Source: Planctomycetota bacterium
GTDB taxonomy: Bacteria > Planctomycetota > UBA1135 > GCA-002686595
Direction of reading: 5' to 3'
DNA length: 64,000 bases
NCBI GenBank assembly: GCA_014237855.1
Contig: JABACD010000007.1
Location: 65,399-129,398 of the forward strand
In this document: one piece after another, positions 1-51,256 of the stretch
Numbering within the stretch: position 1 is the stretch's first letter
Layout of the letters: each line of letters starts with the position of its first letter
Translations under genes and position numbers: made by a program
The notes under the pieces: model-generated
Seen by the model: only the letters and a program-made list of their open reading frames with translations
Database searches by the model: none
What the model was told of the DNA's origin: nothing

Positions 1-1891
1 TCTGGGACGTCTCGAACTCCCACACCTCTCCCGTCGTGGGCACACCGAGCGTCACCATGTCGACGCGCCAGTAGTAGGTCGTCTCGGCCTGCAGGTGCCC
101 GGGCTCGAAGGTCGTCTCGGTCTGCTGCCCCTGCAACTCGGAGGCACCCGGGGTGGGGTTCGTACCGAAGTAGACGTCAAAGGCGTCGGGAGTCTCACAG
201 GGGAACCACCGCAGGGTGGGGGTGTGCGTGACGCCCACCTCTCCATCCAAGGGCTCGGGCGGGCTGTTGCCACTGCTTGACGCGCCGACGTGGAACTGCG
301 CGGGGTCTGACCAGTCGCTCCAGGCGAGGGCCGAGTCACGGTAGCGCACGCGCCACCACACGTCGCGGCAGCCGGGTAGGACCTCGTCCACGAAGATGTC
401 CTCGATCTGCGCGTCCGTGACGGTATCGACGCTGTACCAGCCGTCCCCGTTGGGAGGCCGGTACCAGTTCTCGATCCGGCGCCAGTCATCGGTGATCGGG
501 CTCGACCAGTCATTCTGGAACTCGGAGATCTGGTACTGAGCTTCCAGCAGGGTGTCTCCGTCGGAGTCGCTGAAGGTCGAGCCGACCAGCTCCACATTCC
601 CGGAGGTCTGGTCAGCGCTGGAGGGATTCGGGAAGAGCGCCGTCGGCTTGTCCGGCGGGATGTTGTAGCGGCGGATCGTGATCTCGTCGCTCAGGGTGTT
701 GTTCTTGGCGACGAACTCGTTCCCGCGGCTGAGGCGGCGCAGTCGGAACTGGGGATCGCTTCCCGCATCCACGTCGATGATGCAGAAGCCCCAATCAGGC
801 TCCGAGTACTGGAATTCGGGGTAGTCGGCCTGGGGGTACTCGTACCAGTAGTCCGGGTTTCCCATACCAGTGGCGACGTTCACCATGAGGTGGTCATGAT
901 CCCTGCTCTGGCCGCGGGAGTAGCCGTGGGTGTGGCCAAAGAAGTGGACCGAGGGCTTGCCCGTGTCGTCGGAGAACTGCTCCAACCGCGCGACCAGGTT
1001 CGAGCTGAAGCCTGATTCCCCGGGCGTCCAGAGCTCGGACTTGTGGGGGTGGTGGAAGAGGCAGAAGACGAAGTCGATGCTGTCATTTGTGGCTGCGTCA
1101 GCCAGAACGCCGTCTATCCAGCTGAGCTGCTCGGAGGTGCTCGTGTAGCCGTTGGTGTCGAGGCCGATCAGGCGCACATTCTGGCGGTCCGCCCACCAGT
1201 AGCGTTCCTCACTACCGGAGAGGGAGTTGTGCGGGAGCTGCAGGTACTCGTAGTAGAGCGCCGCATCCGCCTCGTGGTTCCCCAGCACCGAGTAGGAGGG
1301 GACCTGCTCGTAGAGCTCTTGCGCCTGGCCAAAGTAGTGATTCTGCCATTGCGAGTGGTTGCTACCCGTGCTGACCAGGTCACCGCAGTGCACGAGGAAG
1401 GCAAGCTCCTCGGCCATGTCCGGCCCGTACTGCTGGGCCGTGTAGGCCATGATCCCTTCCTCGATGACCTCGCGGTGTTTCTGGGAGTTGTTGCCGTCGA
1501 CCTGAGTGTCGGAGATGGCTGCGAAGCGCCAGGACTCCTCGGAAGTCTGCAGGGGCGGTGTCTTGAAGTGGGAGATGTCGCTGTACCAGCTTCCGGTCTT
1601 CACCCGGTACCAGTACGTCGTCTCTGGCTGCAGGCCGGTCAAGCGCACCTGATGGATGATCGTGCCGGCGGAGGAGTTGAGGAAGTTGCCCGAGGTGGAG
1701 CTGGGGATCGACGGCGTCGTCCCGTACTCCACCACGCTCTCCGTGGTGTTGGCGGTCTCCCAGCAAACCCACATGGTCGTCGGCGAGGGATCTTGCAGGT
1801 AGGGCCCTGCCTCGATTCCTGCGCCGCGAAAGTAGGCTGCGGAAGCGAGGAACAGGCAGGCGAAGATCAGCGGGAGGCGCTTGGAGAACAT
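1..1891 (-). CDS. Secreted purple-acid-phosphatase-like metallophosphoesterase; C-terminus lies beyond the window edge (absent from ORF track)
   Basis: Hand translation of the minus strand from the ATG (rc of cat at 1889-1891) gives MFSKRLPLIFACLFLASAAYF... and stays open to nt 1. Metallophosphoesterase motifs seen: CGDLVSTG, GNHEAD, FHHPH, GHTHGY. Codons are GC3-rich. The listed + ORF 1043..1906 is its antisense shadow. Confidence 0.85.
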   Translation of the reverse strand, partial: MFSKRLPLIFACLFLASAAYFRGAGIEAGPYLQDPSPTTMWVCWETANTTESVVEYGTTPSIPSSTSGNFLNSSAGTIIHQVRLTGLQPETTYWYRVKTGSWYSDISHFKTPPLQTSEESWRFAAISDTQVDGNNSQKHREVIEEGIMAYTAQQYGPDMAEELAFLVHCGDLVSTGSNHSQWQNHYFGQAQELYEQVPSYSVLGNHEADAALYYEYLQLPHNSLSGSEERYWWADRQNVRLIGLDTNGYTSTSEQLSWIDGVLADAATNDSIDFVFCLFHHPHKSELWTPGESGFSSNLVARLEQFSDDTGKPSVHFFGHTHGYSRGQSRDHDHLMVNVATGMGNPDYWYEYPQADYPEFQYSEPDWGFCIIDVDAGSDPQFRLRRLSRGNEFVAKNNTLSDEITIRRYNIPPDKPTALFPNPSSADQTSGNVELVGSTFSDSDGDTLLEAQYQISEFQNDWSSPITDDWRRIENWYRPPNGDGWYSVDTVTDAQIEDIFVDEVLPGCRDVWWRVRYRDSALAWSDWSDPAQFHVGASSSGNSPPEPLDGEVGVTHTPTLRWFPCETPDAFDVYFGTNPTPGASELQGQQTETTFEPGHLQAETTYYWRVDMVTLGVPTTGEVWEFETSQ

Positions 1892-14190: not shown

Positions 14191-14314
14191 TGGCTCCCCG
14201 GTCTTTACACCTCTGCGAACTCTCTCATTTCGGGGAGATCAGGCTTCTTGGGGTCGGGAAGCCATGTCTCGGTTCGCATGACGTGTTAACTGGGGGTCCG
14301 AGCGAGACTCGAAC
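14191..14314 (-). repeat. Copy B of the ~125-nt element; overlaps the 3-prime part of tRNA-Asn and ends in CCGGGGA-G-CCA
   Basis: Aligns with 2232..2360 (blocks as for copy A). Inner stems are GGCTTC/GAAGCC and TCTC/GAGA; outer arms are TGCGAAC/GTTCGCA and beyond. Confidence 0.6.
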
Positions 14315-14366
14315 TTGCGACAAACCGGTTAACAGCCGGTTGCTCTACCAACTGAGCTATCGGGGA
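14291..14366 (-). tRNA. tRNA-Asn (anticodon GUU), canonical 76-nt span, but the 3-prime acceptor strand is non-complementary. See findings
   Basis: Minus strand reads TCCCCGA-TA-GCTC-AGTTGGTA-GAGC-A-ACCGG-CTGTTAA-CCGGT-TTGTC-GCAAG-TTCGAGT-CTCGC-TCGGACC-C-CCA. Only 4 of 7 acceptor pairs form, and there is one A-C mismatch in the T stem. Confidence 0.7.
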
Positions 14367-14500: not shown

Positions 14501-14533
14501 AACCTGAGAGGGCCTTGATGGCCCTCCCAGGTT
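14501..14533 (-). terminator. Hairpin downstream of the peroxiredoxin gene (candidate terminator)
   Basis: AACCTGAGAGGGCC-TTGAT-GGCCCTCCCAGGTT pairs at 13 of 14 bp. The U tract is weak. Confidence 0.45.
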
Positions 14534-14554: not shown

Positions 14555-15025
14555 CTACTGACCGAGCTCGCAGGCCTTGGCCAGGAGATCAGCAGGGTTC
14601 CGCTCGCCGCCGGGACCGACGGACTCGGCCCACAGGACCTTGCCGTCCTTGCCGATGAGGACCGTGGCCCGATCGCCGATGCCCGGCTCGTCGAGCCAGA
14701 GACCGTAGGCCTTGCAGACCGCACCCTTGGGGTGGAAGTCAGCCAGGAGCGGGAAGTCAATCCCATTGAAGCTCTTGGCCCAGGCCATGTGACAGAATTT
14801 TGAATCGATTGAAATACCAAGCACCTCGGTATCTGCGTCCTCAAACTTCGCCTTGAGCGCGTTGAGGCCGGGAATCTCGATGCTTCAGGTCGGGGTGAAA
14901 TCGAGTGGGTAGAAGACGAGCAGGACGTTCTTCTGCCCCTTGTAGCTGGACAGATCGACCGTGGTCTCGAGGTGACTGTCGAGACTGAAAGTCGGAGCGT
15001 CAGCGCCGTTGGCGATGATGGCCAT
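14555..15025 (-). CDS. AhpC/TSA-family peroxiredoxin with in-frame UGA (probable selenocysteine) at the peroxidatic position
   Basis: Track ORFs 14885..15136 and 14555..14824 are in the same frame. Read through the TGA at 14885-14887 they give ...VLLVFYPLDFTPT-U-SIEIPGLNALKAKFEDADTEVLGISIDS..., so the TGA replaces the conserved Cys of the FYPxDFTxxC motif. ATG at 15025. Confidence 0.8.
14839..14867 (-). promoter_or_regulatory. Candidate bacterial SECIS hairpin
   Basis: The stem starts 17 nt after the UGA: CCUCAA-CGC-GCUCAAG-GCG-AAGU-UUGAGG. Confidence 0.45.
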
Positions 15026-15132
15026 GATTCGGTTACTTGGGTTGGAATGAATCGCGAGAACCAGCGGGGTACCCCGCCGGCAACGTGCGCATTCTAGACT
15101 CTGACCAGGGCCTTGGTGGAGAGCAACTCCCC

Positions 15133-16089
15133 TCAACTCTGGGTGGAATCCTCAATCTCCTTCCTGGCGCGGCCATCAAAGGTCACCGGGGTCAGCTTCA
15201 GACGTCCCAGATCAAAGCCCTCGAGAAGGTCCCGGGCGGAGAGGGGTCCACAGGCCAGGAAACCACAGGAGCGCGCCAGCCAGGCGATCAGGCTCTCCGC
15301 CTTGACTCCAGCCTCACGCAGGGCCGCCAGGGAGAGGGCATCATGGCGCTTGGCCAGCCGCTCACCCGACTCATCGAGGACCAGCGGGACGTGAATCCAG
15401 GAGGGTGGCTTGAGCCCCAGGAGCGAGTACAGCAAGACCTGACGCGGAGTACTCGACAGGAGATCATCACCCCGGAGCACCTCGGTGATGCCCTGGCGGG
15501 CGTCGTCGAGCACCACGGCCAGCTGGTAGGCAACCTGGCCATCGCGGCTCGTGATTGGAAAGTCGCCCACCTCCCGCTCCAGGTCCTGGCAGAACTCCCC
15601 ATGAAGACGATCCTGAATCGAGAGCTCTCCCCGAGTTACCTTCAGGCGCAGGGCAGGCTCTCGGCCCGAAACTCGACGGGCTTCTTCCAGGCTCTTGAAG
15701 CGCCCTCGACAGGTCCCCGGATAGACGGAGTTCTCCTGATCAGCGTGGGGAGCGGACTGTGCCTCGCTGATCTCCCGCCGGGTGCAGATGCACGGATAGG
15801 CGTGCCCCAGCCGCAGGAGCTCCAGGGCAGTCTCGTACAGCTCCCCCTCGTGGTCACTCTGCAGCACCACCGGCCCATCCCAGTCAAGCCCCAGCCACTC
15901 AAGGTCCCGCAAGCAAGCCTCAACCATTCCAGGCTTCACCCTGGACCTGTCCAGATCCTCCAGGCGCAGCCGCAAGGTCCCACCTGCCGATCGCACCGAC
16001 CACCAGGCCAGCAGGAAGGAGCGCGCGTGACCCAGGTGAAGCAGGCCCGTGGGACTCGGGGCAAGACGTCCGACCGGACCTACCGACAC
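15133..16089 (-). CDS. gluQ: Glutamyl-Q tRNA(Asp) synthetase (GluQRS)
   Basis: GRLAPSPTGLLHLGHARSFLLAW (HIGH-type motif), ...YPCICTRREI..., ...YPGTCR... and the ~300-aa truncated GluRS-like length fit GluQRS. GTG start overlaps the upstream gene. Confidence 0.8.
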   Translation of the reverse strand: MSVGPVGRLAPSPTGLLHLGHARSFLLAWWSVRSAGGTLRLRLEDLDRSRVKPGMVEACLRDLEWLGLDWDGPVVLQSDHEGELYETALELLRLGHAYPCICTRREISEAQSAPHADQENSVYPGTCRGRFKSLEEARRVSGREPALRLKVTRGELSIQDRLHGEFCQDLEREVGDFPITSRDGQVAYQLAVVLDDARQGITEVLRGDDLLSSTPRQVLLYSLLGLKPPSWIHVPLVLDESGERLAKRHDALSLAALREAGVKAESLIAWLARSCGFLACGPLSARDLLEGFDLGRLKLTPVTFDGRARKEIEDSTQS

Positions 16090-50764: not shown

Positions 50765-51256
50765 TCAACCCAGGACCGCCAGGATCTCGTCAGCCTGGCC
50801 CCCTGGATCCTGAGTATCGATTGCCATCTCGATCAAGCCATCGGGGTTGATCAGGAAGGTGTAGCGGGCTGCAAACTTGGTATCAGCCGCGGCTGCAGCA
50901 CCGTAGGCAATCGCCAGCTTCCGCTCCGTGTCACACAACAACGGAAAGGGGAAGTCGTGCTTCTCTGCAAAGGCACGGTTCTTCTCGGGCGAGTCGAAGG
51001 AGACGCCATAGACGTGGATGGCGCGCACGTCGAAGTCGGAGATTCGATCACGGAACCCCCTGCCTTGCTTGGTTCACCCAGGCGTGTCCGCCATCGGATA
51101 GAACCAGAGCAGGTAACGCTGACCTGCCAGGTCGGTCGATCTCACCAGGTTGCCATTCTGGTCCTCACACTCGAAGGCCGGGGCGGGATCACCCACCCTC
51201 AAGCTCAACTCGCTACCGCCACCGGGCAAGAAGCGCTGGATCATTTTCTTGAACAT
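50765..51256 (-). CDS. bcp: Bcp-type peroxiredoxin with in-frame UGA (probable selenocysteine) at the peroxidatic position
   Basis: Track ORFs 51074..51256 and 50765..51028 share a frame. Read through the TGA at 51074-51076 they give ...LLWFYPMADTPG-U-TKQGRGFRDRISDFDVRAIHVYGVSFD..., against the canonical FYPKDxTPGCTxExCxFRD. Confidence 0.8.
51030..51073 (-). promoter_or_regulatory. Region expected to hold the SECIS element (two alternative hairpins)
   Basis: Two alternative hairpins are possible. One is GAACC-N13-GGUUC, starting inside the UGA. The other is UCGAA-UCUCCGAC-UUCGA, about 27 nt downstream. I cannot choose between them by eye. Confidence 0.3.

What the first reader, a model, noticed from the sequence alone, without database searches (positions are those of the whole stretch)
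14555..15025. AhpC/TSA peroxiredoxin with TGA at the peroxidatic Cys codon: probable selenoprotein split by ORF calling
ORFs 14885..15136 and 14555..14824 are in one frame, separated by a single TGA (14885-14887). Read-through gives VLLVFYPLDFTPT-U-SIEIPGLNALKAKF...GISIDS, with the TGA exactly where peroxiredoxins carry the catalytic Cys.

A hairpin (14839-14867) starts 17 nt downstream, in the position where bacterial SECIS elements sit.

Sec-containing peroxiredoxins are an established bacterial selenoprotein class. A standard pipeline would annotate this one as two fragments or as a pseudogene.
Basis: partly seen in the sequence, partly recalled or inferred. Interest (0 to 1): 0.6.

Follow-up and report, generated by a model that had tools for sequence, protein, structure and literature searches.

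The report
Selenocysteine peroxiredoxin with two-hairpin recoding signal
The two small ORFs are one intact peroxiredoxin gene whose catalytic residue is selenocysteine encoded by UGA, a known kind of selenoprotein that gene finders cut in two.

Summary
Confirmed. Window 14555-15025 (minus strand) is one 156-codon AhpC/TSA peroxiredoxin gene (Pfam E 1e-31). Its closest solved relative is the 1-Cys peroxiredoxin AhpE of M. tuberculosis. It has a single in-frame TGA (14885-14887) at the peroxidatic position of the PxxxTxxC motif.

The same TGA is present in 79 distinct orthologues from at least six phyla, and more distant homologues carry Cys. dN/dS is below 1 on both sides of the TGA. TGA is otherwise the commonest stop codon in the window. 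The genome encodes tRNA-Sec, SelA, SelB and a Sec-containing SelD, plus further selenoprotein genes. Public protein databases hold this family almost only as 88-108 aa C-terminal fragments. It is a new member of the known "Prx (TxxU)" selenoprotein class, not PrxU.

The less ordinary part is the recoding signal. Directly 3' of it lies a second hairpin (H2, 14813-14833) with a GGUN-type loop like the selD SECIS of this genome. H2 has strong compensatory covariation but sits 60 nt from the UGA, outside the 16-37 nt rule. I infer (about 0.55) that H2 binds SelB and H1 acts as a folded spacer.

The parts
14555..15025 (-). Complete coding sequence of the selenoprotein: 156 codons (ATG 15025-15023, Sec-UGA as codon 47, TAG 14557-14555)
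   Evidence: Pfam AhpC-TSA E 1e-31 and Redoxin E 3e-21 on the read-through product. Orthologues start and stop at the same places.
14885..14887 (-). In-frame TGA, read as selenocysteine 47 (peroxidatic residue)
   Evidence: Aligns with the peroxidatic Cys of M. tuberculosis AhpE. TGA sits at this codon in 79 distinct orthologues and Cys in 35-37 homologues.
14885..14908 (-). Active-site motif P40-L-D-F-T44-P-T-U47 (PxxxTxxU)
   Evidence: Read directly from the sequence. The motif is described for Sec-peroxiredoxins in PMC13188914.
14669..14671 (-). Codon of Arg119, the conserved active-site arginine (GDRATV)
   Evidence: Invariant in the 17-sequence alignment A3. Aligned with the Arg of the NRGTF motif of Rv2238c.
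14836..14870 (-). Its apical loop is CAA at +33..35.
   Evidence: It is present at the same place but with varying sequence and register in the orthologues: 68% of cells paired in one fixed register, reached by 3 of 500 shuffles.
14813..14833 (-). Hairpin H2 (columns 55-75): GAUACCGAG-GUG-CUUGGUAUU, 9 bp, loop GUG at 14824-14822 (or GGUGC if the closing pair opens). Proposed SelB-binding head of the recoding signal.
   Evidence: -8.1 kcal/mol, z = -4.5, 0 of 200 shuffles as good. 94% of cells paired over 32 orthologues, 5 of 9 pairs with changes on both sides, 0 of 500 shuffles reach the covariation score. Thr66 is ACC in 27/27 and Gly70 is GGT in 26/27.
14501..14533 (-). 14-bp inverted repeat (AACCUGGGAGGGCC-AUCAA-GGCCCUCUCAGGUU) 22 nt after the stop codon. 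Possibly a transcript-end or stabilising hairpin.
   Evidence: Read from the sequence. The terminator scan did not call it because no T-run follows.

Best explanation
Window 14555-15025 (minus strand) is one gene for a 156-residue peroxiredoxin of the AhpE-like, 1-Cys type. In it the peroxidatic cysteine is replaced by selenocysteine (U47 in PxxxTxxU, with Thr44 and Arg119 completing the active site). The UGA at 14887-14885 is decoded by Sec-tRNA(Sec) delivered by SelB. The enzyme would reduce peroxides through a selenenic acid intermediate. Because no second Cys is conserved, that intermediate must be recycled by an external thiol partner. Relatives fused to a GST-N/glutaredoxin-like domain point to a glutathione or glutaredoxin-type reductant; this last point is inferred.

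The recoding signal is a tandem pair of hairpins. H1 spans +18..+52 and is variable in sequence. H2 spans +55..+75 and is strongly conserved with a GGUN loop. My inference (about 0.55) is that H2 is the part SelB binds and that folded H1 acts as a spacer. If H1 is skipped, the H2 loop lies an effective 22-25 nt from the UGA.

What is shown: gene integrity, conservation of the TGA, Cys in homologues, the Sec machinery, and RNA-level selection on H2. What is inferred: actual selenium insertion, the enzyme activity, and which hairpin binds SelB.
For: Identity of the gene:
- Pfam AhpC-TSA E 1e-31.
- The best solved relative is Rv2238c/AhpE, E 5e-28, with U47 on its peroxidatic Cys.

Sec decoding:
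- The Sec machinery is complete: tRNA-Sec, selB, selA and selD.
- All 9 orthologues in related genomes, all 12 close ones in named MAGs, and 18 of the 24 matches found among 401 genomes of the phylum carry the TGA. The matches without it are all at 50% identity or less. In total there are 79 distinct TGA forms against 35 Cys forms.
- dN/dS is 0.18-0.56 upstream and 0.10-0.34 downstream of the TGA.
- TGA ends 21 of 43 long ORFs in the window, so there is no code reassignment.
- Database relatives are 88-108 aa C-terminal fragments, or carry G or W at the site.
- Other selenoprotein genes occur in the same genome: Bcp-type Prx, SelL-related protein, DG protein, NMT1-like binding protein.

Hairpin H2:
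- 94% of cells paired, 23 compensatory cells, 0 of 500 shuffles reach this.
- For the same peptide context (A/T-Q-V-L/V-G), Sec forms fold H2 at a median of -12.6 kcal/mol and Cys forms at -6.0.
- 63 of 79 Sec forms have at least 8 of 9 pairs plus a GU loop, against 4 of 35 Cys forms.
- The 11 Sec forms with fewer than 7 pairs all have a canonical proximal hairpin with loop GGA, UGGAU/C or GUG at +23/24.
- 67 of 68 H2-bearing sequences fold as tandem H1+H2 once the first 13 nt are removed. The effective spacing is then a median of 23 nt.
- The selD gene of this genome has the hairpin ucgcgca-GGUCU-ugcgcgg and its DG gene has gcucgc-GGUC-gcgagc.
Against: - There is no direct evidence of selenium in the protein or of expression.
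- Neither hairpin meets the published bacterial SECIS model in full. H1 has no G in the first two loop positions. H2 lies 60 nt from the UGA, where the model allows 16-37 (rule text).
- In this window's own copy the hairpins are among the weakest of the family. The 78-nt MFE is an alternative fold (-24.0) rather than H1+H2 (-21.6), unless the UGA-proximal 13 nt are sequestered.
- Excess folding relative to synonymous shuffles is not unique to the post-UGA region. Two other regions of the gene show it too.
- One Cys form nested among Sec forms keeps H2, and 14 of 37 Cys forms reach 7 of 9 pairs. The Sec/Cys state changes only 4 times on the tree, so the association between H2 and Sec cannot be tested with phylogenetic control.
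- The 11 forms without H2 come from only two clades.
Confidence: 0.93

Rival explanations
1. H1, the first reader's hairpin, is the functional SECIS. H2 is an RNA structure kept for another reason, such as mRNA stability, a translational pause that aids folding of the beta-strand it encodes, or a general enhancer of recoding that does not bind SelB.
For: The H1 loop lies 29 nt from the UGA, inside the 16-37 nt window. A hairpin occupies this position in every orthologue. A Cys form keeps H2. The Q/E-V-L peptide is intrinsically palindromic at codon level, which gives 5-7 of 9 pairs even in Cys forms.
Against: The H1 loop (CAA, CCA, UCA, CUC ...) lacks the G or GU that the model and the SelB structures require. 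Its sequence and register drift: 68% paired in one register, and RNAalifold finds no consensus. H2 carries the GGUN loop seen in the selD and DG genes of this genome. H2 is missing exactly in the two clades that have a canonical proximal G-loop hairpin.
Confidence: 0.3
2. The TGA is a genuine stop. The locus is then either a pseudogene or two separate products: a 46-residue peptide and an N-terminally truncated protein started at an internal codon such as GTG 14824.
For: Standard ORF calling gives this reading, and public databases record the family this way.
Against: The truncated product would lack the whole PxxxTxxC active site. TGA is conserved at the same codon in 79 distinct sequences from six phyla, with purifying selection on both sides. 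The codon at 14824 is GUC or GUU, not a start codon, in most orthologues. The Sec machinery is present.
Confidence: 0.02
3. The UGA is read through, but not as Sec. It would be read by near-cognate tRNA (Trp or Cys) or under a reassigned code (table 4 or 25).
For: A few database entries show W or G at the site.
Against: TGA is the commonest terminator of long ORFs in the window, 21 of 43. The site is the redox-active residue, where only Cys or Sec works. The W and G entries are therefore most likely TGA translated under tables 4 and 25 (inference; their DNA was not fetched). The genome has dedicated selA/B/C/D.
Confidence: 0.03

Closest known systems
Sec-containing peroxiredoxins, 'Prx (TxxU)' class. 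PrxU of Eubacterium acidaminophilum (Sohling et al. 2001) and the 43 Prx selenoprotein genes of the Sargasso Sea survey (PMC1088965) are examples; the class is listed in PMC13188914.
   Same: AhpC/TSA fold (PF00578), Sec at the peroxidatic position of PxxxTxxU, Cys homologues widespread, bacterial SelB-dependent decoding.
   Different: It is not PrxU: NF040737 scores 75.8 bits against a cut-off of 270. PrxU is a 233-position Prx1/AhpC-type model. This protein has 156 residues and is closest to the AhpE type. The Sargasso Prx set was filed under COG1225 (Bcp type). I found no paper that describes an AhpE-like Sec subfamily, but my literature search was limited.
Mycobacterium tuberculosis AhpE (Rv2238c; PDB 1XXU, 1XVW, 4X0X, 5ID2), a 1-Cys peroxiredoxin
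   Same: Best solved relative (E 5e-28 over residues 3-143). Same length class, same PxxxTxxC and Arg positions, and no conserved resolving Cys.
   Different: AhpE uses Cys. The reductant of AhpE (mycothiol/mycoredoxin, from my own knowledge) is not expected in Planctomycetota. Relatives of this protein are instead fused to a GST-N/glutaredoxin-like domain.
Bacterial SECIS: E. coli fdhF element and the bSECISearch consensus model (Zhang and Gladyshev 2005, as summarised in PMC13188914 and PMC8659212)
   Same: It lies in the coding sequence 3' of the UGA. H2 has a 9-bp stem, a small apical loop with G followed by U, and an energy at or below -7.5 kcal/mol. The loop reads GGUNN, like GGUC of fdhF.
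   Different: The H2 loop is 60 nt from the UGA, where the model allows 16-37 nt and fdhF has 18. A roughly 35-nt hairpin (H1) is intercalated between the UGA and H2. No bulged U was identified.

Membership tests
Peroxiredoxin (AhpC/TSA, PF00578) | Sequence matches the family model above its curated threshold | tested here: met
   109.9 bits against a cut-off of 26, E 1e-31, covering profile positions 2-123 of 124.
Peroxiredoxin (AhpC/TSA, PF00578) | PxxxTxxC active-site motif with the peroxidatic residue, plus the conserved Arg | tested here: met
   P40, T44, U47 and R119 are present. U47 aligns with the peroxidatic Cys of AhpE and R119 with the AhpE Arg.
Peroxiredoxin (AhpC/TSA, PF00578) | Thiol- or selenol-dependent peroxidase activity | not testable with these tools
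   Needs an enzyme assay.
Bacterial selenoprotein (SelB-dependent UGA recoding) | In-frame UGA conserved among orthologues and aligned with Cys in homologues | tested here: met
   79 distinct TGA forms and 35-37 Cys forms at the same column.
Bacterial selenoprotein (SelB-dependent UGA recoding) | Genome encodes tRNA-Sec, SelA, SelB and SelD | tested here: met
   All four score above the curated cut-offs in G000. The assembly is 93.7% complete with 1.8% contamination.
Bacterial selenoprotein (SelB-dependent UGA recoding) | Selenium is actually incorporated at the UGA | not testable with these tools
   Needs 75Se labelling or mass spectrometry.
bSECIS consensus model (PMC13188914, Fig. 2 legend) | 3-9 nt apical loop on a 4-16 bp upper stem, MFE <= -7.5 kcal/mol | tested here: met
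   H1: 3-nt loop, 4+6 bp, -9.7 kcal/mol. H2: 3-nt loop, 9 bp, -8.1 kcal/mol.
bSECIS consensus model (PMC13188914, Fig. 2 legend) | G in one of the first two apical-loop positions (mostly G[G|U]) | tested here: inconclusive
   H1 does not meet it: the loop is CAA here and CCA, UCA or CUC in orthologues. H2 meets it: the loop is GUG here, and columns 63-67 read GGUUC, GGUCC, GGUCG, GGUCU or GGUGC in 57 of 67.
bSECIS consensus model (PMC13188914, Fig. 2 legend) | 16-37 nt between the UGA and the apical loop | tested here: inconclusive
   H1 meets it (29 nt). H2 does not in linear distance (60 nt). If H1 is skipped as a folded insert, the H2 spacing is a median of 23 nt, range 18-31.
PrxU (NCBIfam NF040737, equivalog) | Score above the equivalog cut-off | tested here: not met
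   75.8 bits against a cut-off of 270.
AhpE subfamily of peroxiredoxins | Closest to AhpE among characterised Prx; 1-Cys mechanism with no conserved resolving Cys | tested here: inconclusive
   The top seven PDB hits are all Rv2238c/MT2298-type AhpE chains. No other Cys is invariant. No subfamily-specific model was available, so I call it AhpE-like rather than a member.

The most novel reading that the evidence does not exclude
This peroxiredoxin family uses a distinct class of bacterial SECIS. The SelB-binding GGUN-loop hairpin (H2) lies about 60 nt from the UGA, and a variable intercalated hairpin (H1) folds so as to bring it to a canonical effective distance of about 23 nt. The arrangement is kept in at least five phyla. 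It was exchanged for a canonical proximal SECIS in two subclades. A similar layout may occur in another selenoprotein gene of the same genome, the NMT1-like binding protein, which has a GGUCG loop at +53.
Probability: 0.5. Interest if true: 0.6.

Novelty: new member of a known kind. Interest (0 to 1): 0.42.

Why it matters
Annotation. The active-site half of this enzyme is missing from nearly every database entry of the family. More than 100 of the 120 best hits listed are 88-108 aa fragments, and some entries were translated with the wrong genetic code. The oxidative-stress repertoire and selenium dependence of Planctomycetota, Acidobacteriota, Myxococcota and other environmental phyla are therefore under-counted.

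Mechanism. If H2 is the SelB-binding element, the 16-37 nt spacing rule built into SECIS-based selenoprotein finders is too narrow. A folded spacer hairpin would then be a new way of setting the distance between UGA and SECIS. This can be tested directly with reporter constructs and SelB binding assays.

Tried and rejected
- My first orthologue searches used window:14555-15024, which is one base out of frame. still found orthologues through DNA conservation, but its "stops inside" column refers to the wrong frame. One search found nothing. Both were repeated in frame.
- Rfam has no match for a SECIS family here.
- RNAalifold on nine sequences predicted no consensus structure, because the H1 register shifts between orthologues.
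- Folding energy of the 54 nt after the UGA against synonymous-codon shuffles gives a mean z of -1.5 in 34 Sec forms and -0.05 in 4 Cys forms. A sliding-window version showed two other regions of the gene with similar excess, so I do not use this as specific evidence.
- Mean synonymous-codon entropy is not lower after the UGA (0.64) than elsewhere (0.66 and 0.59). The constraint is confined to the H2 codons.
- The phylogenetically independent-pairs test of Sec against H2 has no power, with only 4 state changes.
- An alternative hairpin in this copy, cucaag-GCGAAG-uuugag, formally meets the loop and spacing rules. It has only -3.8 kcal/mol and is seen in just one other orthologue (L072), so I rejected it.
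- The sigma-70 promoter and intrinsic-terminator scans found nothing around the gene.
- I considered internal initiation at GTG 14824 and rejected it, because that codon is GUC or GUU in most orthologues.

Full report
**Observation.** On the minus strand the sequence reads ATG (15025-15023) ... TTC TAC CCA CTC GAT TTC ACC CCG ACC TGA AGC ATC GAG ... TAG (14557-14555). The two listed ORFs (14885..15136 and 14555..14824) are in one frame with a single TGA between them. Read-through gives a 156-residue protein. The hairpin 14839-14867 folds at -9.7 kcal/mol (z = -1.81) but is unremarkable in its context (z = -0.46).

**What the protein is.** The read-through product matches Pfam AhpC-TSA (E 1e-31, nearly the whole profile) and Redoxin. 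Its best relatives among solved structures are the seven depositions of M. tuberculosis Rv2238c/AhpE and its close homologues, a 1-Cys peroxiredoxin (E 5e-28). U47 aligns with the peroxidatic Cys, and Arg119 aligns with the Arg of the NRGTF motif. The motif P40-x3-T44-x2-U47 is the PxxxTxxU described for Sec-peroxiredoxins (PMC13188914). No other Cys is conserved in the family, so a one-selenol mechanism with an external reductant is expected. It is not PrxU, since NF040737 scores 75.8 bits against a cut-off of 270.

**Evidence that the UGA is Sec.**
1. The genome (5.3 Mb, 112 contigs, 93.7% complete) has:
   - tRNA-Sec at 74.7 bits, which ARAGORN calls SeC with anticodon tca;
   - selB at 339 bits;
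   - selA at 476 bits;
   - selD at 321 bits, itself carrying an in-frame TGA (CAG-U-AAK) and lying 1.7 kb from selC.
2. Every close orthologue has TGA at the same codon:
   - 9 of 9 in related genomes;
   - 12 of 12 in named MAGs, from Planctomycetota and Krumholzibacteriia at 69-83% identity, plus a Dehalococcoidia gene at 40%;
   - 18 of the 24 matches in 401 genomes of the phylum; the matches without TGA are all at 50% identity or less.
   
   A wider scan raised this to 79 distinct TGA sequences and 35 Cys sequences. It added Acidobacteriota, Myxococcota, Binatota and Pseudomonadota-labelled MAGs.
3. Pairwise dN/dS against 12 orthologues is 0.18-0.56 upstream and 0.10-0.34 downstream of the TGA, with dS of 0.35-1.2. 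Both halves are therefore translated in this frame.
4. TGA terminates 21 of 43 long high-GC3 ORFs in the window, so the code is not reassigned.
5. In the 5.8-billion-protein collection the closest relatives are almost all 88-108 aa C-terminal fragments. The few full-length ones have G or W at the site. These are most likely TGA translated under tables 25 and 4, which I infer without having fetched their DNA.
6. The genome has other selenoprotein genes:
   - a Bcp-type peroxiredoxin in this same window (50765-51256, WFYPMADTPG-U-TKQ, Pfam E 2e-33);
   - a SelL-related redox protein (NF040769, 133.7 bits, above the cut-off);
   - a zinc-ribbon "DG" (seleno)protein;
   - an NMT1-like binding protein whose Pfam match spans its TGA.

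**The recoding signal.** The bacterial SECIS model requires:
- a 3-9 nt apical loop on a 4-16 bp stem;
- a G in the first two loop positions, usually G[G|U];
- 16-37 nt between UGA and loop;
- MFE of -7.5 kcal/mol or lower (PMC13188914).

In E. coli the 17-nt head sits 11 nt from the UGA, and U17, G23 and U24 are essential (PMC8659212).

It meets the size and spacing rules, but its loop is CAA here and CCA, UCA, CUC and so on in orthologues. Its register drifts. RNAalifold finds no consensus, and a fixed register pairs only 68% of cells.

*H2, found while checking synonymous codons.* Thr66 is ACC in 27 of 27 sequences. Gly70 is GGT in 26 of 27, although GGC dominates elsewhere. These codons belong to a second hairpin, H2 (columns 55-75, window 14833-14813): GAUACC(C/G)AG-GUN-CU(G/U)GGUAU(C/U).

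*Covariation in H2.* In this window H2 folds at -8.1 kcal/mol with z = -4.5. Over 32 orthologues 94% of cells are paired. Five of nine pairs show changes on both sides:
- U-A, C-G and G-C at 57:73;
- G-C and A-U at 63:67, through synonymous CAG/CUG to CAA/UUG changes;
- A-U and G-C at 58:72.

No shuffle out of 500 reaches the covariation score, and slid controls pair at most 50%.

*H2 in Sec forms against Cys forms.* For the same peptide (A/T-Q-V-L/V-G), Sec forms fold this stretch at a median of -12.6 kcal/mol and Cys forms at -6.0 (Mann-Whitney p 1.5e-6, not corrected for phylogeny). 63 of 79 Sec forms have at least 8 of 9 pairs plus a GU loop, against 4 of 35 Cys forms.

*Sec forms that lack H2.* The 11 Sec forms with fewer than 7 pairs come from two clades, one of mostly Myxococcota-labelled MAGs and the L062/L064 group. 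All 11 have a canonical proximal hairpin of 6-8 bp with loop GGA, UGGAU/C or GUG starting at +23/24.

*Tandem fold and effective spacing.* With the 13 nt that a ribosome at the UGA would cover removed, 67 of 68 H2-bearing sequences fold as tandem H1+H2. The H1 base lies at columns 14-19 and 47-56, mostly 51-53, and H2 mostly starts at 54-56. If H1 is skipped, the spacing from UGA to the H2 loop is a median of 23 nt (IQR 22-25). Columns 63-67 read GGUUC, GGUCC, GGUCG, GGUCU or GGUGC in 57 of 67. For this window the pair probabilities of H1 and H2 rise from 0.4 and 0.05 in the free 78-mer to about 1.0.

*Other genes in this genome.* The likely SECIS heads of other genes here have the same loop type. 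selD has ucgcgca-GGUCU-ugcgcgg at +36. DG has gcucgc-GGUC-gcgagc at +24. The SelL-related gene has uggag-GUA-cucca at +28. The NMT1-like gene has gugaaggag-GGUCG-uucuuucgc at +53, again distal.

**Mechanism proposed.** The ribosome reaches UGA 47. H1, whose base sits just outside the mRNA channel, stays folded and places the adjacent H2 at the channel entrance. The SelB C-terminal winged-helix domains bind the GGUN loop of H2 and deliver Sec-tRNA(Sec) to the A site. Sec47, activated by Thr44 and Arg119, reduces peroxide and forms a selenenic acid. This is then reduced by an external thiol system. Relatives carry a C-terminal GST-N/glutaredoxin-like domain (P0067: PF13417, PF13409), and long Sec forms also exist (L058-L061). 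Both hint at a glutathione or glutaredoxin-type partner.
- Shown: the gene, the conserved UGA, the machinery, and selection on the H2 structure.
- Inferred: SelB binding to H2, the spacer role of H1, and the reductant.

**Caveats.**
- The association of H2 with Sec is confounded by ancestry. On a 116-sequence tree the Sec/Cys state changes only four times, and the independent-pairs test has no power.
- A Cys form nested among Sec forms keeps H2 (L070). It may be a relic of a recent conversion.
- The Q/E-V-L peptide is palindromic at codon level, so Cys forms already reach 5-7 of 9 pairs.
- Excess folding against synonymous shuffles is also seen in two other parts of the gene.
That agrees with my reading, but it is an unchecked AI note, not independent evidence.

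**Surroundings.** Upstream on the same strand is a glutamyl-Q-tRNA synthetase-like gene (15133-16089; PF00749), and beyond it a GFO/IDH/MocA oxidoreductase. A 107-nt gap precedes the peroxiredoxin start. A 14-bp hairpin follows the stop codon. A tRNA-Asn(GUU)-like sequence lies at 14298-14363. No promoter or terminator consensus was found.

**Verdict.** This is a real and conserved but unannotated selenocysteine peroxiredoxin. It is a new, AhpE-like member of the long-known Prx (TxxU) selenoprotein class. The most interesting residue of the analysis is the tandem-hairpin recoding signal with a distal GGUN-loop hairpin. It would be a variant class of bacterial SECIS if confirmed experimentally.

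Noticed in passing
window 50765-51256 (-): A second peroxiredoxin (Bcp type) has TGA at the peroxidatic codon (WFYPMADTPG-U-TKQ). Pfam AhpC-TSA E 2e-33. A proximal hairpin ggggguuc-CGUGAUC-gaaucucc has its loop starting at +25.
   Followed up: partly
window 14298-14363 (-): A tRNA-like sequence, anticodon loop CUGUUAA (GUU, Asn), scores 51.2 bits in Rfam RF00005 but matches only model positions 4-67. ARAGORN does not call it. It may be a tRNA gene with an aberrant acceptor stem or a tRNA remnant.
   Followed up: partly
G000 C28, + strand, TGA at 0-based offset 19656: An NMT1/SsuA-like substrate-binding protein has an in-frame TGA (LPVT-U-HLTCP). The Pfam NMT1_2 match (residues 4-235) spans the TGA at residue 18. 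A 9-bp hairpin with loop GGUCG starts at +53, preceded by a hairpin at +19..+35. This may be a second case of a distal SECIS head in this genome.
   Followed up: partly
G000 C55 and C27, reverse-complement strand, TGA at 0-based offsets 1361 and 71358 from the start of that strand: Two further selenoprotein candidates. One is a zinc-ribbon 'DG' (seleno)protein (NF049953, 81 bits, below the cut-off of 130) with a GGUC tetraloop hairpin at +24. The other is a SelL-related redox protein (NF040769, 133.7 bits, above the cut-off; FG-U-SFC) with a GUA-loop hairpin at +28.
   Followed up: partly
G000 C15:33969-36690: selD itself contains an in-frame TGA (CAG-U-AAK), followed by the hairpin ucgcgca-GGUCU-ugcgcgg at +36. 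It lies about 1.7 kb from the tRNA-Sec gene.
   Followed up: partly
loci L058-L061, L070; proteins P0056, P0067: A sister group of 247-258 aa proteins fuses this peroxiredoxin to a C-terminal GST-N/glutaredoxin-like domain (PF13417/PF13409 in P0067). The group exists in both Sec and Cys versions, and the one Cys version whose DNA was read (P0056 = L070) still carries H2.
   Followed up: partly
proteins P0005 and P0059 (public database entries): These full-length database entries of close relatives show Gly (FTPT-G-SIEIPG) or Trp (FTPT-W-SKEMPD) at the Sec position. The TGA was most likely translated under genetic code 25 or 4 in the source annotation. I did not fetch their DNA.
   Followed up: no
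window 14501-14533 (-): A 14-bp inverted repeat with a 5-nt loop lies 22 nt after the stop codon and has no following T-run. It may mark the transcript end or act as a stabiliser (not called).
   Followed up: no
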